Assembly: GCA_903904875.1 (NCBI GenBank)
Contig: CAIVEC010000001.1
Coordinates: forward strand, 10,147 to 74,146
DNA length: 64,000 bases
Direction of reading: 5' to 3'
Source of the DNA: an uncultured bacterium
Lineage (GTDB): Bacteria; Patescibacteriota; Gracilibacteria; Absconditabacterales; Absconditicoccaceae
Every line of letters starts with the position of its first letter. Positions within the stretch are counted from its first letter, which is position 1. Positions 3,886 to 56,200 of the stretch are shown piece after piece. The notes beneath the pieces were generated by a model that saw nothing but the letters and a program-made list of their open reading frames with translations, had not been told where the DNA came from and searched no databases. A program made the position numbers and the translations under genes.

Positions 3886-3986
3886 CAAATTTTGTAAGTC
3901 CAACGAAGTGTTTACTATTTATGTTTGAAAACAGCATTACACTTGTATATAGTTATAGCAATAATTTATCTTTTCACTTATGCACC

Positions 3987-4883
3987 ATGCGAGAACAGAT
4001 ACAGAAATATTATGCTGACAAAAAAATCTTCTGGAGGATTATTCTCGTCATCATCCTCGTTTTGATTATCATCTTCCTGATGAACGGAGGAAAGAGATGA
4101 GTGCATCTCAATATCAATAATAACTTAAATTTTGCTGGCGAAACAATGCCAATTGACGGAAAGTATGCGTTGAATATCGAAAGGTTTGACAGGGAAGTTG
4201 CGTTGTTGGAAATCAATGAAGCGCAATTTATCATGATCTACAAAAGACGAAATCTGATCATGCCAACGATAGAAAAAGCGCTCAAAAAGGCTGATCTTCC
4301 TGACGACTTTAAATACATCCCGGTCATCGAAAGCGCATTGAGGGAGAACGTGGTCAGTTCGGCAGGCGCTGCAGGATTGCGGCAATTGATGCCGGGTACT
4401 GCGCAGAAATATGGTTTACTGGTGAATGAATTTGTTGATGAGAGATACGATGTCGCTAAGTCTACGGCGGCGGCTGTCAGTCATTTGAAGGAATTATGAA
4501 AACTGTTTAACAAGCGGACGCTCGTAGCCGCCGCCTACAACAGAGGCGAAAACGGCTTGCAGAATAGTTTGGAATCGCAATATAGCAATAACTTCTACGA
4601 CCTCCGATTGAATAACGAAACCTCAAGATACGTCTTCAGATTATTGGCGATGAAGTATATACGGGAGAATAAATACAGATTCTTTGACCGTGGAATTCTA
4701 GGTGATATGTATACACCGTTCATCACCAAAAGTATGAGCGTGAAACAAGTGGACGATCTAGCGGACCGAGCGAGAAAAAATAATTTGGGGTATTATGAAG
4801 TTAAGAAGTTGAATCCGCGGATCATGAAGAATAATCTCCCGGAAGGCAAACGGAATATAGAAGTATTTCAGTCAGATAAATAG
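3987..4883 (+). CDS. membrane-anchored lytic transglycosylase (SLT domain)
   Basis: N-terminal TM, then IPVIESALRENVVSSAGAAGL(CGG)QLMPGTA and (CGG)TLVAAAYNRGENG. Both CGG fall where this family has Trp (GLWQ, W..AAYN). 897 nt. Confidence 0.8.
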
Positions 4884-11002: not shown

Positions 11003-12298
11003 TTAGGCTTCAAGCCTGACAAGTTTAAACTGTTTCTTCCCTTTTCTGAGAAGAATCGTTCCGTTGATGAAATCCTCTTTTTTGACTGTATGTTGGATGT
11101 CGATGACTTTTGCTTCATTACAATATAAGGAACCAGAAGCGAGAAGTTTCTTCGCTTCGCCGTTGGATTCGGTAAGTCCAGCTTGCGTAAAGAGGTCTAT
11201 GAGTTTAAATTCTGTTCCTGAGATCTCACATCCGCCGGTCTCTTTCTGGAGTGCAGCTAAATCATTTTTGGTCATCGTCCTGATGGTCTGTAATTTATCG
11301 CCTTGGCCAAAAAGAATTTCGGTAATTTTCATGGCCTGATTAGCAGCATCTTCGCCGTAGACGGTAGTAACCAAATAATTAGCCAATTGTTTTTGTCCGT
11401 ATCTGAGTTCCGGGTTCTGCCTATGATTTTTGACGATGCCTGCTACCACGTCGAAATCGAGCAAAGTGAAAATCTTGAGATATTTTTCCACATCTTCATC
11501 TGTCGTATTCATAAAGTATTGATACGCGAAATACGGGCTGGTCTTATTCGGATCAAGAAAAATGGCGTTTCATTCAGATTTTCAGAATTTTTTTCCGGTT
11601 GAATCGTTTATCAAGGGAAACGTCATCACATATCCTTCCGCTTCGTTTCCAAGTTTTTTCCTGATCATTTCCGTACCGGTCACCATATTCCCCCGTTGGT
11701 CGGATCATCCTATCTGCAATTTTACCTTATGCTTTTCATATAAGGTAAGGAAATCGTATCCTTGCAGAAGCATATAGCTGAATTCGGTATAGGTGATGCC
11801 CATTTCCGGATCTTCTATCCTTTTTTTCACCGTCTCTTTGTTGAGCATATTATTGACGGTGATATATCTTCCTGCCGTTCTGAGAAATTCAAAAATGCTC
11901 ATGTTTTTGTAAAAGTCATAGTTATTGATCACTTCGAATTTGAAGTCGTATCCACTAAGTGATTTAAGATTTTCGAGGATTTGTTTTACTTGTTTGGTGA
12001 TTGCTTTTTCGTTGTCTCTCAGCATAGTTTCGTCGAGCATTGTCCTGTCACTAGTCTTTCCACTCGGATCTCAGATCATTCCTGTTGCTCCTCCGACGAT
12101 CATCACGAAGGTGTTGTTCCTTTTCATGAAATTCACTGCCGTCATGAAGCTGACAAAATTTCCGAGCTGGAGAGAATCCGACGTCGGATCGAATCCACAG
12201 TAAAATTTCTGTCCTCCTTTTTCGTAGAGATCAAAAAGCTTTTCATCAGTGAATTGATATACTAAACCACGGGTTTCCAATTCTTCACGCAAATGCAT
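11003..12298 (-). CDS. tyrS: tyrosine--tRNA ligase
   Basis: [15 protein letters not shown] (HIGH-type region), GGSDQ(CGG 11693-11695)GN = GGSDQWGN, KFGKSEG (KMSKS), C-terminal S4-like domain. 1296 nt. Confidence 0.95.
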
Positions 12299-12411: not shown

Positions 12412-14319
12412 TTACATACGTTCAAGAAATTTCATTCAGACCAGATTCATTCACTTTTGTAGTATTTCATGGACTTTTTTCAACAACATTATTCTCGCTA
12501 TCTTCGTTTGTTTTTCTGATTTGAGAATAATCACATTGGCGTAATAGCTGTTAAGCAATTTGGCGGTGTCTAATAAGTATCTACAGAGAAGATACGGAGC
12601 TAACTGGTCTTTTGCTTGCAGAAGCATGTCATTGAATTCAGCAAGTTTTTTTATGAGAGCGAATTCTTCCGGTTGGGTAAGTAATGAAGCAGTTGTAGTT
12701 TCATCCAAATTTTTTATAGCTCATGCATTGTCGATGATGCTTTGTACCCTTGCTCCCGCGTAAAGGATATATGCTCATGTTTCGCCTTGCATGTCTAATG
12801 CTTCGTCGATATCAAACACCAAGTCCTTGTCGATATCAGATCTCATGAGGAAGAATCTGAGCGATCCGATGGCAATGGTCTCTGCAACCTCATCCAGCCG
12901 GGTATCGTCTTTTTCCGGATTTCTTTCTTTGGATTCTCGATACGCTTTACCATGAAGCATAGTAAGCATTTCGTCCAAGGTGACGGTCCGTCATTTCCTG
13001 CTGGAAAACGGGAGTCTTTTTTCCGCCAGTTCTTCTGTGGTAAGTTTGTATCATAATTTAGTTAAGGTCTGTGGAGTAAGATAAACAACACCGTAGCCAA
13101 GCGGAAGATAATGTTTATGCTTCGCTGTATAATCTAATAAGGTGAATGTAGATTTTACAATCGTCTGTGCAGGGATTTGTCTGTTGTCGATAACGGTAAT
13201 TGCGGTGTCGTAATTTCAGAAATCATGCTTAGTCACTTTTGCATCTGGTTGTGAATTGGTGGTATACATAGTTTTACCTCTTGGATCTTCTTCGAAAATA
13301 TCGTAGCCGAAATCTTTGGAGATATAGCCAAGTTTCCAGAGTGCGAAAGCGATATCTTTTGCGATGTATGTAGCAACGCCATCGGACTTGATGAGAATCT
13401 GATATTGTTTTTCTTCTTTGGCGTATTCAGGCAGCGATGAGAGATCAAGCACTCGACATCATTTTGCTTCGCCGTCATCAACGAATTTTACGAATCATTT
13501 CTCTCTGAGCAGATCTATCGCTTCAGCGAAAAATTTGAGATGTAAGACATCCGTCTCTCGTGCGATTGCATCGAAAAACGCGTTCATCCTCCAGCACGTT
13601 CTGATCTGATCTAGCGCGCATCTTCTGGTATAGTTGAAATGAAGCTGGTTGAGATTTTCGTCTTTCCCTTCTTCTATTTTGAATAAGGTCTCTGAGAGTA
13701 TTTTTTTGAATCCTGGATCTTCGTCCTGTTTCCTCATCTCTTCGTAAATATTTCCGCAATAATGATCAAATTTTTTGTCCGTATCTAATGGATAGTCATA
13801 GAATAAATGTCCTACTATATTATAACCGACATTGACGCCGCTATCATCACCGTAGTTGAATGCGTGAACGGTATATCATAGCTCTTCATAAATCCTTCTC
13901 ATACTATCCCCTATACAGACATTTCTTGCCTGACCGATATGGAGGGGTTTATTCGGGTTGGCGTTCATATATTCTATCATCACCCTCGTCTTCGACGATC
14001 CTTTAATTCAGAATTCAGAATTCAAAATTCAGAATTCAAAAAAATCATTGATAAATGTTTTTTTGTCGATGTGTGCGTTGAGATATCCGCTGAGATGTTC
14101 GAACGAAGAAAAATAATCAGATTGTAATTTTTTTGTCAATTCTTCAGCAATCTGCTGAGGAGATTTTTTGAGGAGTTTAGAAAGTCTGAAACACGGAAAA
14201 GCAAAATCTCCCGGAATGTTTTCCGGCGGAATCTCTATCAATGCTAAAATCTCCGCCAATGGCAGATCGATATGTTTAGCTAATAATTCTGCAAAATGCT
14301 GTGTATAGAGAGTAAGCAT
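12412..14319 (-). CDS. argS: arginine--tRNA ligase
   Basis: EYMNANPNKPLHIGQARN (HIGH-type region), anticodon-binding domain, ends ...FLERM as ArgRS typically does. All five ORF-track fragments are in one frame. 1908 nt. Confidence 0.9.
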
Positions 14320-22371: not shown

Positions 22372-23916
22372 ATGAAAAAAAACTTTACTAAATTTTTGTT
22401 CATCGCAGTAGCGGTGATCGGCATGTTTTTTGCCAAATCAAGTCAGGGACAAACAGCTTATGTAAGCTTGGATACACTTAGCAATGGAGATACTATCCAT
22501 TATTGTACTTCACAGTATACCCAGGTAGTCCTTTACAAACCAACGGCAGCATTAACAAATCCTCAATGGGATATTCAACAGCCTTCATATCATAATGTTT
22601 TTGCTGATTCTGTTATCTTAAACACCACAAACGCTGGGACAATCTGGTTTTCGTCTGATCAAACATCAACGATAGAATTAAATTTTTTTCTTGTAGGAGT
22701 ACCAAATTCTCCAGGATTAGCTGATATCAATGCCTGTGGAGATATCTACAGTTACCCGCTTGATGCATTGAATCATAATACCGGGTCTTTTTATACCTGG
22801 TCAACGGGAGCAACAACACAAAACATTACTGCTACAAGTCCCGGGACGTACTGGGTACATATTGATGATGGGTGCGGTACGATATCAGATACTGCTATCA
22901 TTACTGCAGATCATACCAATGACGCTAATCTTGGTCCTGATCAAACGATTTGTCTGTATGATACTATCACGTTGACCAGCGGTAATACCAACATCACTAC
23001 CTATGCATGGTCAACCAGTAGTTCTGCTTCGACTATTACTGTTTCGCAAGCAGGGAGCTATAGTATCACAACAACTGACAATTCTGGTTGTGTAAGTACT
23101 GATACAATGAATCTCATTATTATCGTTCCCTATGATCAGCAGCAAATCTGCATGGTAGAATATGACACTCTTGCGTCCGAGAATCGTATCAATTGGGATC
23201 AGCATCTTGGCGAAAGAATTGACAGTATTAATATCGAAAAACAGATATCACTTACTGAATGGGAAAGTATCGGAGTTGTACCCAATACAATAACTAATTT
23301 TTTGGATACCAATAGTACTCCGCAAACCAATAGCGATTCTTACCGGATTCTTGTAATAGATAGTTGTGGCAACAAATCATCAGCTTCTGATGCTCATAAG
23401 ACCATTACGCTTTTGACGAGCTACACTCCAGGAACTGGGGTTATGGGATTTAATTGGTCTCACTATCTAGTCAATGGCATACTCGTTGCACCGACCTATA
23501 CTATCTATGGTATAGATACCAGTGGAAGTACTCATGTGGTTGGCACGGTTCCGGGAAGCCAGAATTATTATAACTGGACCACCCCCGATTTGAGCTATAT
23601 CAAATTCTTTGTCGGATTTACGCTTAGTTGCGGAGCCAAAACAGATTATCTGGTACGCTCAAACTATACAGGCAACCCTGCAGGAATTGACGAATATTCT
23701 TTGACTGACCAAATTCATGTATATCCGACACTGACCAACGGTCCGATAACTATCATGACCGATCTCTTTATCAAGGATATCAAACTTTATAATACTTTGG
23801 GACAAGTACTCTTGGTCACCAAGGAGAAAAAAATTGATATTCCTTACCATGGACTTTACTTTTTACACATCAACACCGATAAAGGTGTGATGGTAACTAA
23901 AATTATGATCCAATAA
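22372..23916 (+). CDS. secreted repeat protein with Bacteroidota-type T9SS C-terminal sorting domain
   Basis: Signal peptide MKKNFTKFLFIAVAVIGMFFAKSSQG. 3 x Y.WSTGATT..ITV..GTY.V...D..GC..DT repeats. Two Fn3-like ...SCGNKS modules. CTD VYPTLTNGPITI...LYNTLGQVL...GLYFLHINTDKGVMVTKIMIQ. 514 codons with no TGA. Confidence 0.85.
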   Translation: MKKNFTKFLFIAVAVIGMFFAKSSQGQTAYVSLDTLSNGDTIHYCTSQYTQVVLYKPTAALTNPQWDIQQPSYHNVFADSVILNTTNAGTIWFSSDQTSTIELNFFLVGVPNSPGLADINACGDIYSYPLDALNHNTGSFYTWSTGATTQNITATSPGTYWVHIDDGCGTISDTAIITADHTNDANLGPDQTICLYDTITLTSGNTNITTYAWSTSSSASTITVSQAGSYSITTTDNSGCVSTDTMNLIIIVPYDQQQICMVEYDTLASENRINWDQHLGERIDSINIEKQISLTEWESIGVVPNTITNFLDTNSTPQTNSDSYRILVIDSCGNKSSASDAHKTITLLTSYTPGTGVMGFNWSHYLVNGILVAPTYTIYGIDTSGSTHVVGTVPGSQNYYNWTTPDLSYIKFFVGFTLSCGAKTDYLVRSNYTGNPAGIDEYSLTDQIHVYPTLTNGPITIMTDLFIKDIKLYNTLGQVLLVTKEKKIDIPYHGLYFLHINTDKGVMVTKIMIQ

Positions 23917-29035: not shown

Positions 29036-29177
29036 ATTATGGTTTAAGTCTATTTTTTCAATACAAAATCCCTCTCGTGGTTTACTGACCCAATATCTAC
29101 ACTATCTATTGACATTTATACTAAAATATCTATCTTAATAGGGAACTTTATTTAGCTTATGGCAATGATGTATGGTA

Positions 29178-30050
29178 ATGAGGCAACTCAAGATAACAAA
29201 AGGCATTACAAACCGTGTTGATGCATCCCTTGATAAATATCTTCAGGAAATAGGCAGGATAGAGCTTATCACTGCAGAAGAAGAGGTTAATCTTGCGAAA
29301 AGAATTAAGGAGGGAGACGAAAAAGCTTTGGAAAAACTTGTCAAAGCCAATTTGAGGTTTGTCGTATCTGTCGCTAAACAATATCAAAACCAGTGACTTT
29401 CACTTCCTGATCTTATAAATGAAGGGAATCTGGGCCTCATAAGGTCAGCCATCAGATTTGACGAAACCAGAGGATTCAAATTCATCTCCTACGGCGTGTG
29501 GCGAATCAGACAAGCAATCCTGCAGGCAATTGCTGAAAAAAGCAGAACCATAAAACTTCCTCTCAATAAAATATGGGAAATCAATAAATTAAATAAAATA
29601 TCAGAAAGATTGGAACAAGAATATGAAAGACTAGCGACCTCTGATGAGATTGCTGATATTTTGGAAAAATCAGTAGATGACGTAAAAGAGATGGAAGCGC
29701 ATATCCAAAGGACGACTTCTTTAGATAGCCCGTTAAGGCAAGAAAATTCTGATGATGGAAAGGTTATAGACACTATAAGAAGCACAGAATTCAAAGATCC
29801 TGATGATGCACTAATGTTGGAGTGACTCAAAAAAGAGATAGCGAGCAGTCTTTCTAAACTTACTCCAAGAGAAGAGGACATCATAAAAATGTATTACTGA
29901 CTTGGTTATGAAATAAATTACACCCTGGAAGAAATAGCGGTTAAATTTGAACTTACCAGAGAAAGAGTCAGACAGATCAAGGAAAAAGGACTCAGAAGAC
30001 TAAAACATCCTACAAGATCCAGAAATCTCAAACCATATCTCGGACAATAA
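29178..30050 (+). CDS. rpoD: RNA polymerase sigma-70 factor (short, Bacteroidota-like RpoD)
   Basis: [13 protein letters not shown]..., [15 protein letters not shown](G)L, ISYGVW(CGA 29502-29504)IRQAI = WWIRQ. 873 nt. Confidence 0.9.
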
Positions 30051-30120: not shown

Positions 30121-32688
30121 ATGGATCTCAAAGAGATAAGCAAAAAACGACAGAAAAAACGGAAAGAAACAGATCTCTACAAAGTCAGAGAAGATATTTC
30201 TAAACCAAAATTTTATATTCTGGCTATGTTCCCCTATCCGTCCGGTGCATGATTACATGTAGGACATCCGAAGGGATATATTGCTACCGACACGTTGGCG
30301 AGAAAAAAAATGCTTGAAGGATATAATGTACTTCATCCGATGGGATTCGATACCTTCTGATTATGAACGGAAAATTATGCGATAGAGCATAAGATGAAAC
30401 CACAGGATGTAGCGAAAAAAAATATTGCAACATATATGAAGCAACTTGAAATGTTTGGTACTACCTATGATCGAAGTAGAGCCGTCAATACGGCAGATCC
30501 GAAATATTTCAAGCGGACGCAACGAATATTCTTACAGATGTACAATCATTATTATGATGAAAAGTTGAAAAAAGCGATGCCGATCACTGATCCAAGTAAA
30601 CAAGAACGTTTAGCATATGTAGATTACAAGCCGATAAACCGATGTCCATCATGTATGACCGGATTAGCGAATGAAGATCTCGATGACGGAAAATGCGAAA
30701 GATGCGGAAGTGTCGTTGAACAGAGACCGATGAAGCAACGAGTATTGAGGATTACGAAATATGCCGAAAGATTGTTGGAATGATTGGATGTCTTGAAACG
30801 GGAAGAGTCCATGAAAGATTTGGAAAGGAACTGGATCGGGAAATCAGAATGAACAGATTTCGATATGCAGGTCGATGGAACGGATGAAAAATTCAGCGTG
30901 TATACGACAAGGATAGATACGGTTTTCTGAATGTCATTCGTTGCTATCGCACCAGAGCACCCATTAGTGGATAAGATAACCACGAAAGAATATAAAAAAG
31001 AAGTTGAAAAATACAAAGACGCAGCGAAGCACAAAACCCAGTTGGAAAGGACAGAATTACAGAAAGAGAAGACAGGAGTCTTCTGTGGAGCCTACGCGAT
31101 CAATCCGTTCAATGGCGAAAAAGTGAAAATATTCGTCGCCGATTATGTCTTGGCAAATTACGGAACTGGAGTCGTGATGGCCGTGCCCGCGCATGATGAA
31201 AGGGATTTCGAATTCTATAAAAATTACAATAAGAACTGAATAGATATTATATGTGTAAATCAGAGTGAATATGGTGTTGAACCTAGAAATTGAGTTTCTT
31301 TTAATATTGAATACGAATCATTTAAAAAATATTGTAATCAATTAGATAAGTTACCACCTTTCTTATCTGCCAATTGAGATAATCAAAAATTAGTAAATTC
31401 ATGAAAGTTTGATTGACTAACCTTATCAGAAGCAAGAGAAGAAATGAACAAGCGATTAAAAAAAGAATGAATCTGAGGTAGTAAAGTGAATTATAAGATG
31501 CAGGATCGGGTATTCAGCAGACAGAGATATCGAGGCGAACCATTTCCGATTGTACGGACCGAAGATGGAGAAATTGTCGCACTTGAGGAAAAAGATTTAC
31601 CGGTGGAATTACCTGATGTAGATAATTATCAACCGACGGGAACAGAAGAATGACCGCTCGCAAACATCACCGATTGGGTCAATGTTACGTTGCCCGATGG
31701 TAGGAAAGCAAAACGTGAAACGAATACGATGCCAGGACGGGCAGGCAGTTCGCGATACCGGCTCAGATATATGGATGTGAATAATGAGAAGGCATTAGTA
31801 GGAAAAGATAAGGAAAAATACCGAGGGAATGTCGACGTCTATGTCGGAGGTGCGGAGCACGTTACCAGACATATGATCTACGCGAGATTCTGGCAGAAAT
31901 TTTTGTACGATATCGGTGTGGTTACAAAACAGGAACCGTTCGAAGAATATCATTATGTAGGGCTCATCATGGGAGAAGACGGCAGGAAAATGTCCAAAAG
32001 ACGAAAAAATGTTGTCAGTCCAGATGATATTATTAACGAGTTCTGAACTGATGCCTTGAGGACCTATGAGATGTTCATGGGACCGTTCGATCAGCCGATT
32101 GCATGGAGTACGAACGGACTGAAATGAATCAAAAAATTCTTAGATAAAGTTGTTGCGTTGAAAGACAAAATAGGGAGCAAGGAGCAAGGAGCAGGGAGCA
32201 AAGAACCTGAAACCTGAAACATGGAACCTGCAACCCATATAATAGTAAACCAGACAATAAAAAAAGTTTGAGAAGATATCGATGTATTCAGATTCAATAC
32301 CGGGGTTTCACAGCTCATGATCCTCGTCAATCACCTGACCGAATGTAAAACCATCAATAAGAAAACATTCGAAGATTTGGTTGTCTTGATATCGCCTTTC
32401 GCTCCGCATTTAGCTGAGGAATTACGGGAGTGATTAGGTAATGAATACTCCATATTCACGAAAGCGAAATGGCCGAGTTATGATAAAAAATATCTCGTAG
32501 CTGATACCGTAACCATCGCTGTACAAGTGAACGGCAAGGTGAGAGGAACGATTTCTATCGATAAGAACGCTGAAGAAAGTGAGGTCATGAAGCTCGCGAA
32601 ATCAGATGAAAAAATAAAAACACGGATTACGGGCGAACCGAAAAAAGTGATCTACGTCAAAGGAAAAATTTTAAATGTTGTAATATAG
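30121..32688 (+). CDS. leuS: leucine--tRNA ligase
   Basis: KK(CGA)QKK(CGG)K = [12 protein letters not shown](TGA)LHVGHP, D(CGG)VFSRQRY(CGA)GEP = [20 protein letters not shown]. 2568 nt, TAG stop. Confidence 0.95.
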
Positions 32689-33457: not shown

Positions 33458-33458
33458 T

Positions 33459-33543
33459 GGAAGGTTGGCAGAGTGGTCTAATGCGCACCGTTGGAAACGG
33501 TGTGTGCCGCAAGGTACCGGGGGTTCGAATCCCCCATCTTCCG
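33459..33543 (+). tRNA. tRNA-Ser (anticodon GGA), type II with long variable arm
   Basis: Acceptor GGAAGGT/ATCTTCC plus discriminator G. Anticodon stem CACCG/CGGTG with loop TTGGAAA. Variable arm. T-arm GGGGG-TTCGAAT-CCCCC. No encoded CCA. Confidence 0.9.
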
Positions 33544-33550
33544 AAGGATT

Positions 33551-33632: not shown

Positions 33633-35090
33633 CTACTCATCGAGTTTTTCGATAGCGAATTGGCGTGCCATATACGCTTCCGGACTCTTTTGTGTAAAAA
33701 TATCCAAGGCAAACATATAGGCATCCTTGAGATTCAGGAATGTCGCATTGGGAACAAGTGAAGGCATTCTCAGTGAGCTCCATATATCTTCCGGATGAGT
33801 CTCTGCTGAATTACAATACGACAACACCGGCCATGCTGTTCTGGCGGAAAGTGTTGGTCCGAGGCCGTTGATCATGCCGACTATGGCAATGATCACTGCG
33901 CCTTCCGGATACTTTGCATGCAATTCATTGAGTTTTTTGGCAGCTTTCAAAGGCATTTTGTGTCCTGAAATCACCACATCTTCAATGATTATGCTTGCAG
34001 GAATAGCTTTGAGGAATTCTTCATCTGCGAAACATTCAAGCTTATCATCAGGAGATCCTCTCCATAAGATGATCGGCTGTTTCGGGATGTAAAATTGGTT
34101 AACAAGCTGTGCTACGCGCATATAATTTTCCTGCACCTGAGCTAATGGATGACCATCACGGAAAGTCTGTTTTGATAATTCTTTCCAGTCGGCTGTCCTT
34201 AGTCTCCAGGAGTCATTGTCGATGACGTCAGCAACAACCAAGTTTCCAGCGGTATCGATTCCGAATTCGATTTTAAAATCGATTAAGCGGTAGCCCAATG
34301 TATTCCATGCTCCTTCCAACACCAGGAAAGTTTTGCGGGTGATTTCTTCGATTTTTACGAGCATATCAGGATTGGTAATAGTACTGCCGTCCATTGTTGT
34401 CAATGGAGTGATTTCCCAGGTCGGTTTCTTTGGATGTCGTAAAGTCCACTTTGAAATATCTTTCGGATTTTCGATCCAGGGATCATCAATGATTTTAATT
34501 GCCTCTTCAACAAGGTCTTCGATGGAAAGTTCCATGAGTTTTGTAATTTCCGGAAGCTTTTTTCCCACCAGTTTCTCGTTGATCTCTTTTAAAGATTTTT
34601 TAACATTCAGATATTTAATCAATTCTTCCTTATCCTTGGGAAGATAATCACGGAGATCCATGTCTCCTAATTTTCCTCCTTTGGTTTTCAGAAAGAGTTC
34701 AAATACCAGCTTATGGAAGCGATCTGGATTTCCTGGTTTGGCTAAATGAGGCATTCTTTCAAGGTATGATCCCGTAGCAAATCGACGGATAATTACTTCT
34801 AAGGGTATCATAGTACAATTTTTTGCCAAAATTTCTGTATCAGACAACTGTTCGATATACGCCGTACGGATACCTGCCTGTTCCAGCAATTCGAATATTC
34901 TGCTGGTTGTCTGAGTTGCACAAATGGCTTTTTTCTCCAGAGAACGGGTTTTTGAGGCATCATTGTCTGCCGTAGTTTCATTAGTGCTTTCCATGATAAC
35001 TAGATCATGGCGCTGGGCAACTGCCCAGATCTTTTTTGTTTTCCCTGATGTTAAGGGATTTTTGCCAAATTTCTTGAATTTTTTCTGCAT
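33633..35090 (-). CDS. bifunctional SAICAR synthetase / class II AIR carboxylase (PurC-PurE fusion, PAICS-like)
   Basis: 485-aa intact ORF. IPLEVIIRRFATGSY, DFKIEFG, ADVIDNDSWRL (PurC part). ISGHKMP, GMINGLGPTLS, IWSSLRMPS (PurE part). No TGA. Confidence 0.85.
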   Translation of the reverse strand: MQKKFKKFGKNPLTSGKTKKIWAVAQRHDLVIMESTNETTADNDASKTRSLEKKAICATQTTSRIFELLEQAGIRTAYIEQLSDTEILAKNCTMIPLEVIIRRFATGSYLERMPHLAKPGNPDRFHKLVFELFLKTKGGKLGDMDLRDYLPKDKEELIKYLNVKKSLKEINEKLVGKKLPEITKLMELSIEDLVEEAIKIIDDPWIENPKDISKWTLRHPKKPTWEITPLTTMDGSTITNPDMLVKIEEITRKTFLVLEGAWNTLGYRLIDFKIEFGIDTAGNLVVADVIDNDSWRLRTADWKELSKQTFRDGHPLAQVQENYMRVAQLVNQFYIPKQPIILWRGSPDDKLECFADEEFLKAIPASIIIEDVVISGHKMPLKAAKKLNELHAKYPEGAVIIAIVGMINGLGPTLSARTAWPVLSYCNSAETHPEDIWSSLRMPSLVPNATFLNLKDAYMFALDIFTQKSPEAYMARQFAIEKLDE

Positions 35091-35314
35091 AAGTTTTCTT
35101 TTTTTTTAATGATTATTAACGACTTTTTTTAATTTCACCAAGTATAGAAAAATGGCGGCTCTCGGCCTTTCGAATTTTTTATTTTCATATGTATATTGGT
35201 TTTAGTGATTTTTTTGTTTACAATGTTTGGATAATCTATCTATATACCATCAAATGTCAAGTCATCTAATTTTTACATAAAGAAAAACGTATCCTGAAAG
35301 GCAGAACACGTTTA

Positions 35315-36100
35315 TCAATGATTTCTCAGATCTAGTTTGATACCAAGATGAAGTGAGATCTTTTGGGTTTCGAAATTAAATTCCGGTCCGCAGATAAAGG
35401 TAAATCCATGATAGAAATCTTTGGAAGATCCAACTGAAATATGATCGTACCCATGTTTATTCACTTCCACTTCAGCACAGATACCTGCTTGCTGGAGATG
35501 ATATTCTTGGCGATAATAGTATTTCAACCAGGTATTTCCGATAGGTTTTACCTTAAAATACGTATCAATCAGCCAAGAAGGCGTAATTAATCCAAAGAAC
35601 ATAAAGGAACCCTTGCGATACTTGATCGTATGATCGCCTCTTGCGCTTTGAGGAAGGTGAAGATAACTTATATACATTTCTCCATTCAGATACCTGTATA
35701 CTTCTTCCAACGGATATTGTTGAGCATATGGATCCGCTTCCACGATCAATGCAAATCCCATACGAAGCTTGTTCCAATATCAGAACGTATTCGCTGCTTT
35801 TTTATCAAATGGAGCAGCCATAAGATCAAAATCTATACCATAGATCCTGGCACCGATCATAGAATTACGCTTGTACAATGAATGAAAATTGTATACCGTT
35901 TTTTCCAGATTTGTACGATCGTAGCACTTCCGCCAGTAGATTGTTTGATCAATTGTGGACTGATCCAAGAAACTTGGATTATTGAAATTCTGATCCATAG
36001 AGACAACCGAACCTTCTACGAGCGTAGAAGACCGTACCAATATTTGCGCATTACTTTGTAATGCAGCAAACATCACAAGTAATATCACAAATTTTTTCAT
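35315..36100 (-). CDS. secreted hypothetical protein, possibly beta-barrel (Bacteroidota-like signal peptide)
   Basis: Two ORF-track pieces joined by one TGA at 35780. MKKFVILLVMFAALQSNAQ. Alternating aromatic/hydrophilic pattern. 786 nt. Confidence 0.55.
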
Positions 36101-36180: not shown

Positions 36181-36588
36181 CTATTTCCTATTCATAGCAG
36201 TAACCGTGAGCTGTAAGACCGTAGCAATAGAAACTCGGAGCAGGTATGGAATCTGCATATATGCGAGCCGAGGATGATATGAAGAGATAGCAATGGTCGC
36301 CCGAATAAGCGTTCCGAGAATCAATAAGATATCTATAGCCGCGAGAAAATTGTTTTGAAGACGAAATTGAATGGGAGAAAAAATAATATTAAATATCAGA
36401 TTAAGGATGAATGGAAGCATTACCATGAACGAAATCTCTTTTCCCCATCACATCAAGAATACCTTCCCGAAGGAGATAATGATCAAAATATAAAGAACTG
36501 TCCATACCGGCCCGAAAAGCCATGCAGGCGGTGCCCGTCTTGGTTTCTTTAATTTTGCATACCGATTTTTGGTGGTTGTCTTTTTCAT
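36181..36588 (-). CDS. tspO: TspO/MBR tryptophan-rich sensory protein
   Basis: N(CGG)YAKLKKPR(CGG)APPAWLFGPVW and PYLL(CGA 36235-36237)VSIA match the W positions of the family (WY..L.KP.W.PP, PYl.Wv.fA). 408 nt. Confidence 0.85.
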
Positions 36589-43098: not shown

Positions 43099-44640
43099 AT
43101 GAAAACGCAGAAATTTTTCTTTTTTTTGTTGGTTTTCAGCATAAGCTGGATATCAACTAGAGCAACTATTCATCATGTCTATCTGGATAATACCTATAAT
43201 ACAGAATGGCATACGTTTTGCGGGGGAGTGAATGATACTGTCATCCTTCACAAACCAATAATTGCCATGAACAATATTACTTGGGTTACTCCGTTAGGTC
43301 TAATGATTTTTGCTCAGGACACCGTGATTGTGCCGTACAATAATCAAGGGGATTGGTATTTCAGTTCCACCGAAGTAGGAAAGGATGTTTATGTGTATTT
43401 CATTTCTACTCCGCCAGTTCAGCCGGCTTGCATGGCTCATGATACGAGCTTTTGTACAGCAAGTATCAATTGGACCTTGAATGCACAAAACACCAGTACA
43501 TTTTCTACCTATCTCTGGGACAATGGTGCAACTACTAAAAACAGAATAGTCACTACGGTCGGCACCTATTGGGTACAAATCACTAATGCCTGTGGTCAGA
43601 GAACTGATACGCTTCACATCACTCAGTCCAACCCTAATGCTCCTCATCTTGGAGCTGATCAGAGTTTTTGCTGGGGAAGTGGTACGATTCTCAATCCAGG
43701 AAGTACTAATGTAACTTCGTATCAATGGTCAACTGGTGCTATAACACCAACAATCACCGTAGATACGACTGGTACGTACTGGGTATATGTAATTGATGGC
43801 AATGGCTGCAGCGGCAGAGACACGATTCAAGTCACCACTTTGATTCCTATCGGTGAAGAAGAATGTTATGTAGGATTTGATACGCTCACATGGAAAAATG
43901 ATGTTAATTGGACGGTAAATTTACCCGGTAATGCTGACTCCGTACGGATCTACAAAGAGACTTCACTGAATGTGTGGACGCTTATCGGAACTGTTTCCAA
44001 GACCGTTGATCATTTCCTGGATATGGCATCTCTACCACAACAACAGAGCTATAGTTACAAAATAGCTCTAGTGGATACTTGCGGTAATGAGTCTAATCTC
44101 TCATCATTCCATACTACAATCTCACTATTGAGTGCTTACGACCAACCCAGTAACACGTATGGGTTTACATGGTCTGCATATGATGGGATTATAGTAAATG
44201 ATTATTATCTGTATGGTATCTATGGTAACGGAACTGTTACCCAAGTGGGCAGTGTACCTGGTAATCAGTTTATGTTCAATTACCTTAATCCTGATCCTGG
44301 CTTTGTAAAATATTTCGTGGGTTTTGAAACTCCGGATTGTGATGCAAAGACCAATATTGTGGTAAAAAGCAATTGGGTACTGAGAGATTCTCTACTTACC
44401 AGTGTTCATGAAGTGGGAATCATTCCGTTCGCTGTTTATCCTAATCCAGCCAGCTCACAATTGACGATCAATATCGGAGTTGAAGACTTCCAAGTGAATG
44501 TGCTTACCACGATCGGACAGGTAGTCTTGTCTGAACACAATGTGAAAACATTGGACGTAAGTAGTTTATCCAAAGGTCTGTACATTATGCAGGTAACTGC
44601 TAACGGTACAACCAGCGAAAAAAAGATTATTATCAATTAA
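43099..44640 (+). CDS. secreted repeat protein with T9SS C-terminal sorting domain (paralog of 22372..23916)
   Basis: Signal peptide and the same architecture as the paralog. CTD VYPNPASSQLTINI...GLYIMQVTANGTTSEKKIIIN. 513 codons with no TGA. Confidence 0.85.
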   Translation: MKTQKFFFFLLVFSISWISTRATIHHVYLDNTYNTEWHTFCGGVNDTVILHKPIIAMNNITWVTPLGLMIFAQDTVIVPYNNQGDWYFSSTEVGKDVYVYFISTPPVQPACMAHDTSFCTASINWTLNAQNTSTFSTYLWDNGATTKNRIVTTVGTYWVQITNACGQRTDTLHITQSNPNAPHLGADQSFCWGSGTILNPGSTNVTSYQWSTGAITPTITVDTTGTYWVYVIDGNGCSGRDTIQVTTLIPIGEEECYVGFDTLTWKNDVNWTVNLPGNADSVRIYKETSLNVWTLIGTVSKTVDHFLDMASLPQQQSYSYKIALVDTCGNESNLSSFHTTISLLSAYDQPSNTYGFTWSAYDGIIVNDYYLYGIYGNGTVTQVGSVPGNQFMFNYLNPDPGFVKYFVGFETPDCDAKTNIVVKSNWVLRDSLLTSVHEVGIIPFAVYPNPASSQLTINIGVEDFQVNVLTTIGQVVLSEHNVKTLDVSSLSKGLYIMQVTANGTTSEKKIIIN

Positions 44641-52768: not shown

Positions 52769-53413
52769 CTAATCGATTTTTCTTGCGACAAAACCCATCC
52801 ATGTTTTATTATACGGATCGGCAAAGATTCTTTTATTGATGATTTCAAATCCATGATTCTCGAGTGTCTCCTGAAGTTCTTGTTCAGTCCGATGTTTTCT
52901 GAATCTAATCATTCTTTTATTATAATCATGTTTCGTCTCTAGCCCTTCCCTGGACACCTCCGCTTTTGTAGTGCTCAAGAAGATAAGACCATTTGGTTTC
53001 AATATCTTTTTCACTTTTTTGAATACTTCCTGAATCTTGTCTTTGGGGAAGAGATGGATGAATGCACTCATATACACCGAATCAAATGTCTCTTGGAATT
53101 CATGCTGCAAAAAATCCGCCTCAATGATATCTGACATAGGGTTTCTTGTTTTCGCATACGTTGTCATTTCATGAGAAAGCTCAACACCAGTACACAAAAA
53201 CCCCTTATCATTGAAACACTTAACGGCTATCCCGACAGCGCAACCTATGTCCAAAACACTGTTTCCAGGCTGTAAGTATGTTGCGCAAATCTCTATAGCT
53301 TCTACCGTCATCGGGATTAAACTTCCGACACGAGACTCATACTCATCAGCAAGCGTATCATATGCTTGTTTGTGAATACTATCATCAGATTTATGTTTGA
53401 GGTTTCTTTTCAT
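52769..53413 (-). CDS. class I SAM-dependent methyltransferase
   Basis: VLDIGCAVGI motif I. 214 codons with no TGA. Confidence 0.8.
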   Translation of the reverse strand: MKRNLKHKSDDSIHKQAYDTLADEYESRVGSLIPMTVEAIEICATYLQPGNSVLDIGCAVGIAVKCFNDKGFLCTGVELSHEMTTYAKTRNPMSDIIEADFLQHEFQETFDSVYMSAFIHLFPKDKIQEVFKKVKKILKPNGLIFLSTTKAEVSREGLETKHDYNKRMIRFRKHRTEQELQETLENHGFEIINKRIFADPYNKTWMGFVARKID

Positions 53414-54787: not shown

Positions 54788-56200
54788 ATGTTTCAAAATA
54801 AAAAATCTAAAATAAAAAAAGATATGATACAAACCAAAACATTTATTCGCGCTACGGGAAAGTATATTCCTGAGCGTGTCGTGCCAAACTCGGATTTTGA
54901 AGATCCAGAGAAATATGAATTCTTCATATCCAATGACAAAAAAGAAGAACGCTCCAATCTTGAAATTGCCGACAAACTTGCAGAAATCACGGGTATCAAA
55001 GAACGACGATATTTTGATGAGCATACGACAACTTCAGATGCAGGCTATCGTGCCGCAAAAAACGCTTATGATGCTTCCAGAGATGATCCACAAAAAACCG
55101 ATGTCTTCATTTTCGCTCATAATTTCGGTGACATCCGTTATGAAGAGGATAAGTTTGATTGTGTGCCCTGCCATGCAGCAAGAATCAAGAATAATCTCGG
55201 TGTAGAAAACCCTTATACGGTTGCTTATGATATCGCTATCAGCGGTGCTTGTTTGATAAGGGATCTCACGAAACTAAAGGAGTATCTTGCTTTGGGGCCT
55301 AATGATCTTGTCGTAGAAACTGAGAATTATGAGCTCACTGGTATCTATGAAAAAGCTCAGCGTGCTTTTTCTCTTCTTGACGTGCAAAAGGAAAGCTTAC
55401 ATCGGATTATTGTGATTCATATTATTTATGAAAAATTATGTCTTGCAGCCAAAGTAAAAAGAAGGCTGGAAACAGCTAATCCCGATGCGCTTGCTTTTGA
55501 TGTGCTTTTCGGCTGTCCTGGGTGGCTCCATAGTGTAAGCATTGCTGACGCATTCATCACCTCAGAGAAAGCAAAAAAAATCATGGTTATCGGTGCTGAA
55601 GCATTATCACGAGTATCTGATTATTCAGATCCGGATAGCCAGATCTATTCTGATGGAGGAGGCGCCATCTATCTTGAGGGACGAAAAGTAGACGTTTCTG
55701 AGACCCTGGATGATAGTTTTTTCATCTTTGCATCTGTGGGTGCCGGTATGAATCGTAATGTCATGGTGTACTCCAAAAAGTATGGCATCTTAGGTTATCT
55801 TGTATGTTCAGATACCACATCGAAGTATCTCAATCTGCTCTGGATGGATAGATCGTATAATTCTAAGATCGCTGGCTTATATCTCAAAATAAAGGGATCA
55901 ACTGTCTTTGGATATGCAAAAGGGAAAGTTCCTGAGCTTATCAAACAGCTGATGGACAAGCTTGGAATAAACATCAATCAAGTAATCCGCATGTATCTTC
56001 ACCAGGCTAATGAGACATTGGATATAGCAATGACAAAGGGCGTCTTCGAACTTTGTTGTGGCAGAAAAGACTATTCCACTGATCCTCCTACCCCTAGCTA
56101 CATCATTCCTGATGGGCTCGTTCCTATGACCATTCAAAAGTATGGCAATAATTCCGTTGCTACACTACCTATACTGTTGGATGAGTTTGGATTGCAGTAA
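54788..56200 (+). CDS. FabH-like beta-ketoacyl synthase III family protein with ~90-aa internal insertion
   Basis: ITGIKE(CGA CGA)YFDE, AFDVLFGCPGW active-site Cys, IGAEALS(CGA)VSD, HQAN, GNNSVATLP. 470 codons with no TGA. True start may be ATG 54824. Confidence 0.8.
   Translation: MFQNKKSKIKKDMIQTKTFIRATGKYIPERVVPNSDFEDPEKYEFFISNDKKEERSNLEIADKLAEITGIKERRYFDEHTTTSDAGYRAAKNAYDASRDDPQKTDVFIFAHNFGDIRYEEDKFDCVPCHAARIKNNLGVENPYTVAYDIAISGACLIRDLTKLKEYLALGPNDLVVETENYELTGIYEKAQRAFSLLDVQKESLHRIIVIHIIYEKLCLAAKVKRRLETANPDALAFDVLFGCPGWLHSVSIADAFITSEKAKKIMVIGAEALSRVSDYSDPDSQIYSDGGGAIYLEGRKVDVSETLDDSFFIFASVGAGMNRNVMVYSKKYGILGYLVCSDTTSKYLNLLWMDRSYNSKIAGLYLKIKGSTVFGYAKGKVPELIKQLMDKLGININQVIRMYLHQANETLDIAMTKGVFELCCGRKDYSTDPPTPSYIIPDGLVPMTIQKYGNNSVATLPILLDEFGLQ

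What the first reader, a model, noticed from the sequence alone, without database searches (positions are those of the whole stretch)
30121..32688. CGA and CGG occupy invariant tryptophan positions: a second and third codon reassignment on top of code 25
LeuRS starts ..KK-CGA-QKK-CGG-KE (30148, 30160), where bacterial LeuRS has KWQ..W. It also has D-CGG-VFSRQRY-CGA-GEP (31507, 31531) for DW.FSRQRYWGEP. The same pattern appears elsewhere. TyrRS: GGSDQ-CGG-GN (11693-11695) for GGSDQWGN. Sigma-70: VW-CGA-IRQ (29502) for WWIRQ. TspO: N-CGG-Y..KP.-CGG-APP and PYLL-CGA-V (36562, 36235). Rubrerythrin: CGG-x-C..CGY (62801). SLT: GL-CGG-Q (4380). Arg in these genes is AGA, AGG, CGT or CGC, and TGG is also still used for Trp. 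To my recollection, a CGA/CGG-to-Trp change has only been proposed computationally for a clade of Absconditabacterales. No NCBI table that I know of describes UGA=Gly plus CGR=Trp.
Basis: partly seen in the sequence, partly recalled or inferred. Interest (0 to 1): 0.85.

Follow-up and report, generated by a model that had tools for sequence, protein, structure and literature searches.

The report
CGA/CGG read as tryptophan, with exceptions
This SR1-group (Absconditabacterales) bacterium reads CGA and CGG as tryptophan instead of arginine, as was predicted by computation in 2021, but a small, conserved set of its genes is still written in the ordinary genetic code, and I found no report of that.

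Summary
In LeuRS, 17 of the 19 CGA/CGG codons lie in columns where Trp is the majority residue in 78 standard-code LeuRS. None lies in an Arg column (P about 7e-25). TyrRS, sigma-70, TspO, rubrerythrin, the SLT protein and ArgRS agree. In orthologues from related genomes, CGA, CGG and TGG swap with each other and never with Arg codons. About 68% of Trp codons in ordinary genes of the window are CGA/CGG.

The reassignment is not new. Shulgina and Eddy (eLife 2021) predicted UGA=Gly plus CGA/CGG=Trp for Absconditabacteria, and it has not been tested experimentally. No CGR-reading tRNA could be reached here.

The unexpected part is a minority of genes that follow the standard code: at least 4 and probably 6-7 of 52 in the window. 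They are a PurC-PurE fusion, a KASIII-like enzyme, two T9SS sorting-domain proteins and probably two more. They have no in-frame TGA, Trp only as TGG, and CGA/CGG at invariant Arg positions. Their 5' leaders are A-rich. The pattern holds in orthologues from about a dozen related genomes: about 500 Gly codons without one TGA, and dN/dS of 0.14-0.36. The cause is unknown.

The parts
30121..32688 (+). Leucyl-tRNA synthetase gene: 10 CGA, 9 CGG, 5 TGG, 19 in-frame TGA. This is the gene of the finding.
   Evidence: 17 of 19 CGR codons lie in Trp-majority columns of 78 standard-code LeuRS. The other two lie in His and Tyr columns. None lies in an Arg column.
30148..30162 (+). KK-CGA-QKK-CGG-KE, aligned to KWQxxW at the LeuRS N-terminus
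   Evidence: The columns have 61 of 78 and 71 of 78 Trp.
31507..31533 (+). D-CGG-VFSRQRY-CGA-GEP, aligned to DWxxSRQRYWGxP. The Arg residues in this motif are AGA.
   Evidence: Both columns are 78 of 78 Trp.
11003..12298 (-). Tyrosyl-tRNA synthetase; CGG at 11693-11695 in GGSDQ-CGG-GN
   Evidence: It aligns to GGSDQWGN in three solved TyrRS.
29172..30050 (+). Sigma-70 family factor; CGA at 29502-29504 in YGVW-CGA-IRQA
   Evidence: It aligns to the second Trp of WWIRQA.
36181..36588 (-). TspO/MBR protein; 4 CGG and 1 CGA. Codons 9, 18 and 118 lie on conserved Trp.
62693..63277 (-). Rubrerythrin; CGG at 62801-62803 before CxxCGY lies on Trp. CGA at 63116-63118 is ambiguous (Leu or Arg in the homologues).
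3921..4883 (+). SLT/MltD-like lytic transglycosylase; 9 CGR codons; CGG at 4380-4382 in AAGL-CGG-QLMP
   Evidence: It aligns to AAGLWQFIP. The other CGR sites lie in unconserved columns, none of them Arg.
12412..14319 (-). Arginyl-tRNA synthetase; 5 CGR codons. CGA at 13558-13560 lies on the conserved Trp of (Y)DxxxWE(S/T)D.
33458..33544 (+). tRNA-Ser(GGA), the only RNA gene in the window. No CGR-reading tRNA is present.
33633..35090 (-). Standard-code gene: PurC-PurE (PAICS-like) fusion. 0 TGA in 21 Gly codons, 10 TGG, and CGA at an invariant Arg column (103 of 103 homologues).
54788..56200 (+). Standard-code gene: KASIII (FabH)-like. 0 TGA in 29 Gly codons. TGIKE-CGA-CGA-Y corresponds to the invariant ERR of the family. 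The true start is probably the ATG at codon 13.
22372..23916 (+). Standard-code gene: signal peptide plus T9SS type A sorting domain. 0 TGA in 35 Gly codons, 9 TGG, 1 CGG.
43099..44640 (+). Standard-code gene: paralogue of the previous one (35% identity). 0 TGA in 36 Gly codons, 15 TGG, 1 CGG.
35312..36100 (-). Probable standard-code gene: 261-aa protein with a signal peptide. TGA sits exactly where the L089 orthologue has its TAA stop and is followed at once by TAA. One internal TGA (35780-35782) lies where L089 has CGA.
59736..60629 (-). Probable standard-code gene, perhaps a recent import: dihydroorotate dehydrogenase-like. 12 TGG. Its only TGA lies 11 codons before the TAA, so it may be the real stop. 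It is the only gene in the window with a full AGGAGG ribosome-binding site.
52769..53413 (-). Possible standard-code gene: SAM methyltransferase. 0 TGA in 10 Gly codons, which is not significant on its own. It is absent at this position in the relative L083.

Best explanation
The window is chromosomal DNA of an Absconditabacterales (candidate division SR1) bacterium. It reads UGA as glycine and, in nearly all of its genes, CGA and CGG as tryptophan. Arginine is left with AGA, AGG, CGU and CGC. UGG is still Trp but is now the minority Trp codon, at about 32% in ordinary genes.

Shown here: the match between codons and residues, and the free exchange of TGG, CGG and CGA at the same sites between related genomes.

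Inferred from the published survey of the order, not shown here: tRNA(UCG) and tRNA(CCG) that lack the Arg identity base A20 and carry the Trp discriminator G73 are charged by TrpRS, and no tRNA-Arg reading CGA/CGG remains. The route would be codon capture under AT pressure. CGR became rare as an Arg codon, its tRNAs changed identity, and TGG then drifted to CGG (one transition) and on to CGA.

The rule is not genome-wide. A conserved minority of genes is written in, and evolves under, the standard code: no in-frame UGA, Trp only as UGG, CGA/CGG as Arg. These are the PurC-PurE fusion, the KASIII-like enzyme, all T9SS sorting-domain proteins, and probably two more in this window. Why they stay that way is not established.
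For: Conserved columns. In LeuRS, CGA columns are 89.6% Trp and 0.5% Arg, and CGG columns are 70.6% Trp and 0.7% Arg. For comparison, TGG columns are 99% Trp and AGA and AGG columns are 74% and 70% Arg. 17 of 19 CGR codons fall in the 24 Trp-majority columns and none in the 23 Arg-majority columns, P = 6.8e-25.

Codon budget. TGG+CGA+CGG = 24 in this LeuRS, inside the range of 20-28 TGG in standard-code LeuRS.

Independent proteins agree.

Orthologue codon exchange. There are 121 of 129 pairings within TGG/CGA/CGG and none with Arg codons. Against the close relative L089 there are 51 identical codons, 15 switches within the trio and none to Arg.

UGA=Gly. TGA columns are 58% Gly in LeuRS and 87% Gly in other genes. 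TGA makes up 29% of Gly codons.

Codon usage in ordinary genes per 10,000 codons: TGG 51.8, CGA 62.1, CGG 48.5.

Literature. The same reassignment, with matching tRNAs, was reported for Absconditabacteria. It is repeated in NAR 2026.

The exception class rests.
Against: No tRNA reading CGA/CGG, no TrpRS gene and no proteomic data were available. The window and all fetched related loci hold only tRNA-Ser(GGA) and tRNA-Arg(CCU).

In the published assembly with the most similar codon usage (GCA_002791215.1), no tRNA(UCG) or tRNA(CCG) was found.

In at least 4 genes of the same window, CGA/CGG sits at invariant Arg columns. A cell with a pure CGR=Trp reading would mistranslate these. So decoding may be more complicated than a clean reassignment.

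A few CGR codons in ordinary genes lie in non-Trp columns (His, Tyr, Lys or unconserved).
Confidence: 0.9

Rival explanations
1. Ambiguous decoding. CGA/CGG are read as both Trp and Arg by competing tRNAs, or by one tRNA charged with either amino acid. Genes would then tolerate a mixed proteome, and neither gene class would be read cleanly.
For: Both signals coexist in one genome. CGR sits at invariant Trp in ordinary genes and at invariant Arg in the standard-code class. Shulgina and Eddy note that ambiguous translation cannot be excluded without experiments.
Against: It does not explain why the second class also lacks every in-frame TGA and never uses CGR for Trp: 0 of 29 TGG sites switched in that class against 9 of 26 in ordinary genes. 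A mixture at invariant catalytic Trp and Arg sites would be costly. No difference in neighbouring bases clearly separates the two classes.
Confidence: 0.1
2. C-to-U RNA editing turns CGG into UGG in the mRNA, as in plant mitochondria (where CGG was once misread as a Trp codon; this is from my own knowledge). The code itself would be unchanged.
For: CGG differs from TGG by one C/T. CGG and TGG alternate at the same sites between relatives.
Against: Editing CGA would give UGA, which is Gly in this organism. Yet CGA columns are 89.6% Trp and Gly is not among their six commonest residues. CGA is the commoner of the two codons. The relative L001 uses CGA 15 times and CGG 0 times in its LeuRS, and at 13 of the 19 window CGR sites L001 also has CGR, i.e. 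CGA. No bacterial editing system of this kind is known to me.
Confidence: 0.01
3. There is no reassignment. The lineage simply replaced Trp by Arg at many conserved positions.
For: None beyond the formal possibility.
Against: Seventeen Trp-majority positions, ten of them 78 of 78 Trp, would all have changed to Arg within one essential enzyme, while true Arg positions never use these codons. The Trp content of ordinary genes would be 0.5-0.7% without CGR and is a normal 1.5% with it.
Confidence: 0.005
4. The mixed signal is an artefact or a transient state. The TGA-free genes with CGR at Arg positions would be assembly chimeras, or recent imports from standard-code bacteria that have not yet adapted.
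For: Foreign genes would look like this at first. The nearest homologues outside the group are often Bacteroidota. The DHODH-like gene has a TGA at its likely stop, is the only gene with a full AGGAGG site, and is absent from related loci. It may well be a recent import.
Against: The same gene order appears in five or more independent assemblies. The KASIII-like gene lies next to the PAP2 gene, with DnaK further downstream, in three genomes. Synonymous divergence between these genomes is saturated, with dS about 1-3. TGA and GGN swap rapidly in ordinary genes: in DnaK, 13 shared TGA against 22 discordant. Even so, about 500 Gly codons of the three families in about a dozen genomes contain no TGA. 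Usage of most other codons already matches the resident genes. dN/dS is 0.14-0.36.
Confidence: 0.08

Closest known systems
Absconditabacteria code with UGA=Gly plus CGA/CGG=Trp (Shulgina and Eddy, eLife 2021, Codetta screen; PMC8629427)
   Same: The same three codon changes, the same order of bacteria, low GC (0.385 here against 0.29-0.38 published), and AGA as the main Arg codon. The published outlier GCA_002791215.1 has CGA 30, CGG 24 and UGG 35 per 10,000 at GC 0.38, close to this window.
   Different: Here CGA+CGG (111 per 10,000) outnumber TGG (52) about two to one in ordinary genes. A conserved class of genes does not follow the reassignment. The paper treats each genome as having one code. 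Its 'CGG=Arg' or '?' calls for some members might come from this class; that link is my inference.
NCBI translation table 25 (SR1 and Gracilibacteria)
   Same: UGA is read as Gly, and TAA/TAG are the only stops in most genes.
   Different: Table 25 keeps CGA/CGG as Arg. Translating this window with it puts Arg at about two thirds of the Trp positions.
CGG=Trp in Anaerococcus and in RFN20 Bacilli (Onthovivens)
   Same: An Arg codon from the CGN box is taken over by Trp in a low-GC lineage.
   Different: Only CGG changes there, and it stays extremely rare. CGA remains Arg, read through tRNA(ICG). Here both codons changed and became the main Trp codons.
Phage genomes with mixed or dual-compatible codes: code-11-compatible phages linked to Absconditabacteria/Gracilibacteria (mBio 2023, PMC10746230), and recoded phages whose code differs between genome blocks (titles listed)
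   Same: Some genes avoid in-frame TGA so that they are readable where TGA is a stop. There are tandem stops of different kinds at gene ends (TGA TAA at 35312-35317).
   Different: Those are phage genomes or blocks within them. Here the genes are single chromosomal genes scattered among recoded neighbours and conserved across genera. They are also not dual-compatible, because they use CGA/CGG for Arg. No phage homologues were found.
Agrobacterium T-DNA genes (from my own knowledge; a functional analogy only)
   Same: Genes carried in one organism but written with the expression conventions of another cell in which they act.
   Different: No transfer machinery, border repeats or clustering were seen. 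Transfer to a host is pure conjecture here.

Membership tests
Absconditabacterales UGA=Gly + CGA/CGG=Trp code (Shulgina and Eddy 2021) | In-frame UGA at conserved Gly positions | tested here: met
   TGA columns are 58% Gly in LeuRS and 87% Gly in other genes. 448 in-frame TGA make up 29% of Gly codons.
Absconditabacterales UGA=Gly + CGA/CGG=Trp code (Shulgina and Eddy 2021) | CGA at conserved Trp positions | tested here: met
   All 10 LeuRS CGA codons lie in Trp-majority columns; pooled, 89.6% Trp. Also seen in sigma-70, TspO and ArgRS.
Absconditabacterales UGA=Gly + CGA/CGG=Trp code (Shulgina and Eddy 2021) | CGG at conserved Trp positions | tested here: met
   7 of 9 LeuRS CGG codons lie in Trp-majority columns. 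Also seen in TyrRS, TspO, rubrerythrin and SLT. There are 7 CGG/TGG switches against L089.
Absconditabacterales UGA=Gly + CGA/CGG=Trp code (Shulgina and Eddy 2021) | Arg encoded by AGA/AGG/CGU/CGC only | tested here: inconclusive
   True for ordinary genes: Arg-majority columns of LeuRS hold no CGR. Not true for the minority class, where CGR sits in columns that are 103 of 103 and 114 of 114 Arg.
Absconditabacterales UGA=Gly + CGA/CGG=Trp code (Shulgina and Eddy 2021) | tRNA(UCG) and/or tRNA(CCG) with Trp identity (G73, no A20) | not testable with these tools
   Only tRNA-Ser(GGA) and tRNA-Arg(CCU) occur in the window and in the code-25 loci scanned. The rest of the genome could not be fetched.
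Absconditabacterales UGA=Gly + CGA/CGG=Trp code (Shulgina and Eddy 2021) | No tRNA-Arg able to read CGA/CGG (no ACG/ICG, no Arg-type UCG/CCG) | not testable with these tools
   This needs the complete tRNA set.
Absconditabacterales UGA=Gly + CGA/CGG=Trp code (Shulgina and Eddy 2021) | Member of the order Absconditabacterales, with low GC | tested here: met
   GC is 0.35-0.41. Syntenic relatives include GCA_002414185.1 (the UBA5124 SR1 genome in the published table) and a MAG that NCBI names Candidatus Absconditabacterales. No marker-gene tree was made.
NCBI table 25 | All codons other than UGA keep their standard meaning | tested here: not met
   CGA/CGG occupy Trp columns.
C-to-U RNA editing of CGG (plant-organelle type) | Only C-to-U changes are needed to restore the conserved residue | tested here: not met
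   CGA would be edited to UGA (Gly here), yet CGA columns are 89.6% Trp.
Code-11-compatible / dual-coded phage genes | No in-frame TGA within a code-25 setting | tested here: met
   0 TGA in 21-36 Gly codons per gene for four window genes. About 0.1 such genes are expected in the window and 4 are seen (the expectation is my sum of its P(0 TGA) column). Across 13 loci, 0.54 are expected and 19 seen.
Code-11-compatible / dual-coded phage genes | Located in a phage or prophage | tested here: not met
   These are single genes between housekeeping genes, with conserved neighbours. There are no matches, or only weak ones (26% identity), in 50,697 phage records.
Code-11-compatible / dual-coded phage genes | Readable identically in both codes | tested here: not met
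   They use CGA/CGG at invariant Arg positions. These would become Trp in the resident code.

The most novel reading that the evidence does not exclude
The standard-code genes may be kept in that code because their working protein is made by ribosomes of a standard-code cell, namely the host or prey of this epibiotic bacterium, which may be a Bacteroidota member.

Several observations fit this reading. TGA is avoided completely, or sits only at the stop. CGA/CGG mean Arg and Trp is only UGG. The untranslated leaders are A-rich, a feature I recall as favoured by Bacteroidota ribosomes. Every gene with a T9SS sorting domain belongs to the class, and T9SS is a secretion system that SR1 bacteria are not known to have (my knowledge). 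The rest of the class includes enzymes for purine, pyrimidine and fatty-acid precursors, which such reduced bacteria must obtain from a host. This would be a bacterial counterpart of T-DNA genes, or of phage early genes written for the host's code.
Probability: 0.15. Interest if true: 0.95.

Novelty: new variant of a known kind. Interest (0 to 1): 0.65.

Why it matters
The reassignment itself adds another genome, at the most advanced stage seen so far, to one of the few predicted sense-codon reassignments in bacteria. It also has a practical consequence. Translating this lineage with table 25 puts Arg at about two thirds of all Trp positions, which degrades every homology search and structure prediction.

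The gene-class exception matters more if it holds up. It would mean that one bacterial chromosome carries two coding dialects that have stayed stable over long evolutionary time. That challenges the one-genome-one-code assumption behind code-inference tools. It may explain the puzzling 'CGG=Arg' or '?' calls within the same order. It also points to a set of genes (surface proteins with a foreign secretion signal, and nucleotide and lipid enzymes) whose translation regime differs from the rest. This is directly testable by metaproteomics.

Tried and rejected
1. A concatenated query of eight window proteins in the large protein search, meant to collect reference homologues for many genes at once, returned nothing and cost one search.

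2. tblastn of all window proteins against the flanks of the 78 standard-code LeuRS loci gave too few hits for a window-wide tally.

3. The search for the decisive tRNA failed.
- No such tRNA is in the window or in the code-25 loci scanned.
- Rfam found only the tRNA-Ser.
- The supplements of the 2026 NAR paper held no usable Absconditabacterales tRNA data.
- The 2021 source data list presence or absence only.
- The source assemblies (ERZ1426811, ERZ1426834, ERZ1426812) have no DNA on hand.

4. Context-dependent decoding: the bases flanking CGR differ only mildly between the two gene classes (P = 0.007 and 0.05), with no clear rule.

5. A Bacteroidota-type promoter (TAnnTTTG) upstream of the standard-code genes is only weakly enriched, 4 of 20 against 11 of 185. 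These genes instead tend to have an ordinary TTGACW -35 box, 9 of 20 against 22 of 185. DNA-level expression in Bacteroidota therefore gets little support from promoter signals.

6. Phage origin: no matches, or only weak ones.

7. Solved-structure alignment of the DHODH-like protein did not settle its CGR sites or its C-terminus.

8. A possible counter-example, P0158 (a short PurC homologue), turned out to be a copy in a code-25 contig (in-frame TGA in the neighbouring ClpP gene) that lost its PurE half and is itself free of TGA.
Full report
1. THE OBSERVATION

The gene at 30121-32688 (+) is a leucyl-tRNA synthetase of 855 codons, matching Thermus LeuRS at E = 4e-163. It contains 19 in-frame TGA, 10 CGA, 9 CGG and 5 TGG.

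I fetched 80 LeuRS loci from one genome per species. Seventy-eight have no in-frame TGA and carry 20-28 TGG. The other two, L001 and L002, are TGA-recoded relatives. I aligned the window protein, with CGA/CGG masked as X, to the 78 standard-code proteins.
- The 24 Trp-majority columns are filled in the window by CGA x10, CGG x7, TGG x5 and two other codons.
- The 23 Arg-majority columns are filled by AGA x11, AGG x6, CGT x1 and five non-Arg codons. None holds CGA or CGG.
- The chance of 17 or more of 19 codons landing in the 2.8% of columns that are Trp columns is 6.8e-25.
- The two remaining CGG codons lie in His and Tyr columns.
- Pooled, CGA columns are 89.6% Trp and 0.5% Arg. CGG columns are 70.6% Trp and 0.7% Arg.
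- TGG+CGA+CGG = 24, which is the normal Trp count of a LeuRS.

- TyrRS GGSDQ-CGG-GN aligns to GGSDQWGN in three solved structures.
- Sigma-70 VW-CGA-IRQ aligns to WWIRQ.
- TspO has three of its five CGR codons on the family's conserved Trp.
- Rubrerythrin CGG-x-C..CGY lies on Trp.
- SLT GL-CGG-Q aligns to GLWQ.
- ArgRS adds one more clear case.
- No CGR codon in these proteins sits in a consistently Arg column. Rubrerythrin codon 54 is ambiguous: Leu in one homologue, Arg in another.

2. WHAT IT IS

TGA is a sense codon throughout the window. It accounts for 448 codons, or 29% of Gly codons, and it aligns to Gly. So this is a genome of the code-25 type.

Comparing codons with orthologues from related recoded genomes gives evidence that does not depend on distant homologues.
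- In six ordinary genes, CGA/CGG pair with TGG, CGA or CGG 121 of 129 times and never with an Arg codon.
- Against the close relative L089 (dS about 0.25-0.34 in the two longest genes compared), there are 51 identical codons and 15 switches inside the trio: 7 CGG/TGG, 6 CGA/CGG and 2 CGA/TGG. There are none to Arg codons.

The three codons therefore behave as synonyms. In ordinary genes of the window the usage per 10,000 codons is TGG 51.8, CGA 62.1 and CGG 48.5. That makes about 68% of Trp codons CGR, and the summed Trp content is a normal 1.5%.

3. ALREADY KNOWN

Shulgina and Eddy (eLife 2021, PMC8629427) predicted exactly this with Codetta for Absconditabacteria: CGA and CGG to Trp on top of UGA=Gly. 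They report the following.
- The tRNAs are consistent with the change. A tRNA was scored provisionally as Trp-type if it has G73 and no A20.
- These bacteria lack tRNA(ACG) and use tRNA(GCG) for CGU/CGC.
- One assembly, GCA_002791215.1 (GC 0.38), has CGA 30, CGG 24 and UGG 35 per 10,000, which they call a more advanced stage.

A 2026 NAR paper repeats the assignment. A 2026 preprint notes that these Arg reassignments are still not verified experimentally.

The window matches that advanced stage and goes slightly beyond it. Its own genome was not among the species representatives; the best LeuRS match is 64% identical. The same genes occur in several ENA assemblies.

4. LIKELY MECHANISM

What is shown is the codon-to-residue correspondence and the synonymous behaviour of the three codons. 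The remaining steps are inferred from the published tRNA survey and from general knowledge of tRNA identity:
- tRNA(UCG) and tRNA(CCG) lost the ArgRS determinant A20 and are charged by TrpRS.
- No Arg-type reader of CGR remains.
- AT pressure had made CGR rare before the change.
- Afterwards TGG drifted to CGG (one transition) and then to CGA.

The related LeuRS genes show different degrees of replacement. L002 has 19 TGG and 3 CGA. L001 has 8 TGG, 15 CGA and 0 CGG. The window has 5 TGG, 10 CGA and 9 CGG.

I could not reach any CGR-reading tRNA. The window holds only tRNA-Ser(GGA). All fetched related loci added only tRNA-Ser(GGA) and tRNA-Arg(CCU).

5. THE UNEXPECTED PART: GENES THAT KEEP THE STANDARD CODE

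Four long genes of the window have no TGA at all among 21-36 Gly codons, with P from 8.5e-4 down to 5.4e-6 each. Summing the P(0 TGA) column gives about 0.1 such genes expected in the window. They use TGG for nearly all Trp. The four genes are:
- 33633-35090 (-), a PurC-PurE fusion;
- 54788-56200 (+), KASIII/FabH-like;
- 22372-23916 (+) and 43099-44640 (+), paralogues at 35% identity. Each has a signal peptide and a T9SS type A sorting domain scoring above NCBIfam's cut-off.

In these genes CGA/CGG align to Arg. The PurC-PurE CGA matches the Arg of human and insect PAICS. TGIKE-CGA-CGA matches the ERR of FabH.

They are not assembly chimeras. The same gene order recurs in five or more independent assemblies.

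They are also not recent arrivals.
- The KASIII-like gene lies next to the PAP2 gene, with DnaK further downstream, in three genomes whose synonymous sites are saturated (dS about 1-3).
- In those genomes TGA and GGN swap quickly in ordinary genes. In DnaK, 13 TGA are shared and 22 are discordant.
- All 79 Gly-Gly columns of KASIII are GGN, and its CGR codons pair with AGR/CGY Arg codons nine times.

The pattern extends to orthologues in other genomes.
- PurC-PurE orthologues from nine code-25 genomes have 0 TGA in 197 Gly codons, while their neighbours use TGA for 24-50% of Gly. The pattern scan that found five of them, four of them new, does not depend on TGA content.
- A tenth copy that lost its PurE half is also free of TGA.
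- Six T9SS-domain genes in four genomes, one of which NCBI labels Candidatus Absconditabacterales, have 0 TGA in 196 Gly codons.

I then ran a column analysis against 103 and 114 standard-code homologues. CGA columns are 61% and 66% Arg, Trp is not among their four commonest residues, and many sites are 103 of 103 or 114 of 114 Arg. This is the mirror image of the LeuRS result.

Between the window and L089, 29 of 29 TGG codons in this class are unchanged. In ordinary genes 9 of 26 switched to CGR. My hypergeometric estimate is P about 5e-4.

Other properties of the class:
- dN/dS is 0.14-0.36, so the genes are under purifying selection as proteins.
- Usage of most other codons matches the resident genes. 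The exception is that Arg is 39% CGY against 15%.
- The 40 bases upstream are A-rich, with median A fraction 0.61 against 0.33 (Mann-Whitney P = 1.7e-10).
- A TTGACW box is common at -75 to -52, in 9 of 20 against 22 of 185 genes.

Two further window genes probably belong to the class.
- In 35312-36100 (-), TGA sits exactly where the L089 orthologue has its TAA stop and is followed at once by TAA. One internal TGA lies where L089 has CGA. In another strain the gene is intact when called in the standard code.
- In the DHODH-like gene 59736-60629 (-), the only TGA lies 11 codons before the TAA. This gene has the only full AGGAGG site in the window and may be a recent import.

Across 168 genes with 12 or more Gly codons in 13 code-25 loci, 0.54 TGA-free genes are expected and 19 are seen. 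That sample is enriched, because the loci were fetched through such genes. The window itself is an unbiased sample.

I found no report of such a class in cellular genomes. The nearest analogues are phages that avoid TGA or that use different codes in different genome blocks. The paper library is not complete.

6. WHAT THE EXCEPTION MIGHT MEAN

A cell that reads CGR only as Trp would put Trp at invariant Arg positions of these enzymes. Yet these positions evolve as Arg, and TGA is selected against. So the selection acting on these genes is that of the standard code.

I can offer only hypotheses.
- Recent import is contradicted for three families (section 5).
- Ambiguous decoding does not explain the avoidance of TGA.
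- Context-dependent decoding has no support.
- The boldest reading is that the proteins are made in a standard-code host cell. It would account for every feature, including the T9SS signal, which I know only from Bacteroidota and relatives. However, it requires a transfer of nucleic acid that nothing here demonstrates, and the promoters look like ordinary sigma-70 promoters rather than Bacteroidota ones. I put it at about 15%.

One side inference: the published 'CGG=Arg' call for GCA_002414185.1 and the '?' calls for other members could result from these genes. CGG is rare in ordinary genes of those genomes.

7. RIVALS FOR THE MAIN FINDING

C-to-U editing fails because CGA would become UGA, which is Gly here. 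Mass replacement of Trp by Arg fails on the column statistics and on amino-acid composition. Chimeric assembly fails on reproducibility across assemblies.

8. VERDICT

The reassignment itself was published in 2021 as a computational prediction and is still unverified experimentally. This window is a further, very advanced example. What appears to be new is that the reassignment is not uniform across genes. I score interest at 0.65: about 0.3 for the reassignment alone, raised because of the conserved standard-code gene class.

Noticed in passing
window 22372-23916, 33633-35090, 43099-44640, 54788-56200; probably 35312-36100 and 59736-60629; possibly 52769-53413. Also L083, L087, L089, L091, L093, L096-L102, L108, L109, L111: A conserved class of genes inside this recoded genome is written in the standard code: no in-frame TGA, Trp only as TGG, CGA/CGG at invariant Arg positions, more CGY among Arg codons, and A-rich 5' leaders. 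It covers a PurC-PurE fusion, a KASIII-like enzyme and every T9SS sorting-domain protein seen.
   Followed up: yes
window 35312-35317 and 35780-35782; window 59766-59768: In two of these genes TGA sits where a stop is expected. TGA TAA lies exactly at the orthologue's TAA. A lone TGA lies 11 codons before the TAA of the DHODH-like gene. One internal TGA replaces a CGA of the close relative, and would be a nonsense mutation in a standard-code reading.
   Followed up: partly
window 1968-2043, 14769-14807, 17122-17155, 17969-18001, 19393-19435, 25710-25744, 28908-28942, 29000-29040, 54590-54621, 60843-60874 and others: Many intergenic spacers hold short tandem repeats of period 7 or 8 (4-11 copies, for example CATTATT, AGCTTAA, TCGTTTAA, AATGAAA), often directly upstream of ordinary TGA-containing genes. 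Their function is unknown. The standard-code genes have A-rich leaders instead.
   Followed up: partly
window, upstream of nearly all genes: Almost no gene has a Shine-Dalgarno motif: 45 of 46 ordinary genes have none within 20 bases of the start. The exceptions are 59736-60629 (AGGAGG) and 61974-62561 (AGGAG).
   Followed up: partly
window 23994-25703 (-) and 39872-42754 (+): Two large repeat proteins are built of 14-residue 'YSTAMG'-type units (42-base repeats; weak YadA-head match). They use TGA very heavily for Gly (41 of 94 and 54 of 151 Gly codons). One lies next to a TGA-free T9SS-domain gene, as also happens in L089 and L109.
   Followed up: no
window 14335-14760 (-): An ArfB-like ribosome-rescue protein (RF-1 domain with a GGQ motif). 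This is of interest in an organism that has given up UGA as a stop.
   Followed up: no
window 32174-32235, inside the LeuRS gene: A low-complexity insert ([16 protein letters not shown]...) is encoded by heptamer DNA repeats (GGAGCAA, AACCTGA), the same repeat period as in the intergenic spacers.
   Followed up: no
L002 (CAMOEC010000065.1) and L001 (CAZZEA010000005.1): Related recoded genomes differ widely in codon use. L002 uses TGA for about 65-90% of Gly codons but has few CGR. L001 uses CGA for Trp 15 times in LeuRS and never uses CGG.
   Followed up: partly
Published table (Shulgina and Eddy, Figure 4 source data), compared with L093 (GCA_002414185.1): The published 'CGG=Arg' inference for this SR1 genome, and the '?' calls for others, could be produced by the standard-code genes. 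Their CGG codons sit in Arg columns, while CGG is rare in ordinary genes.
   Followed up: no
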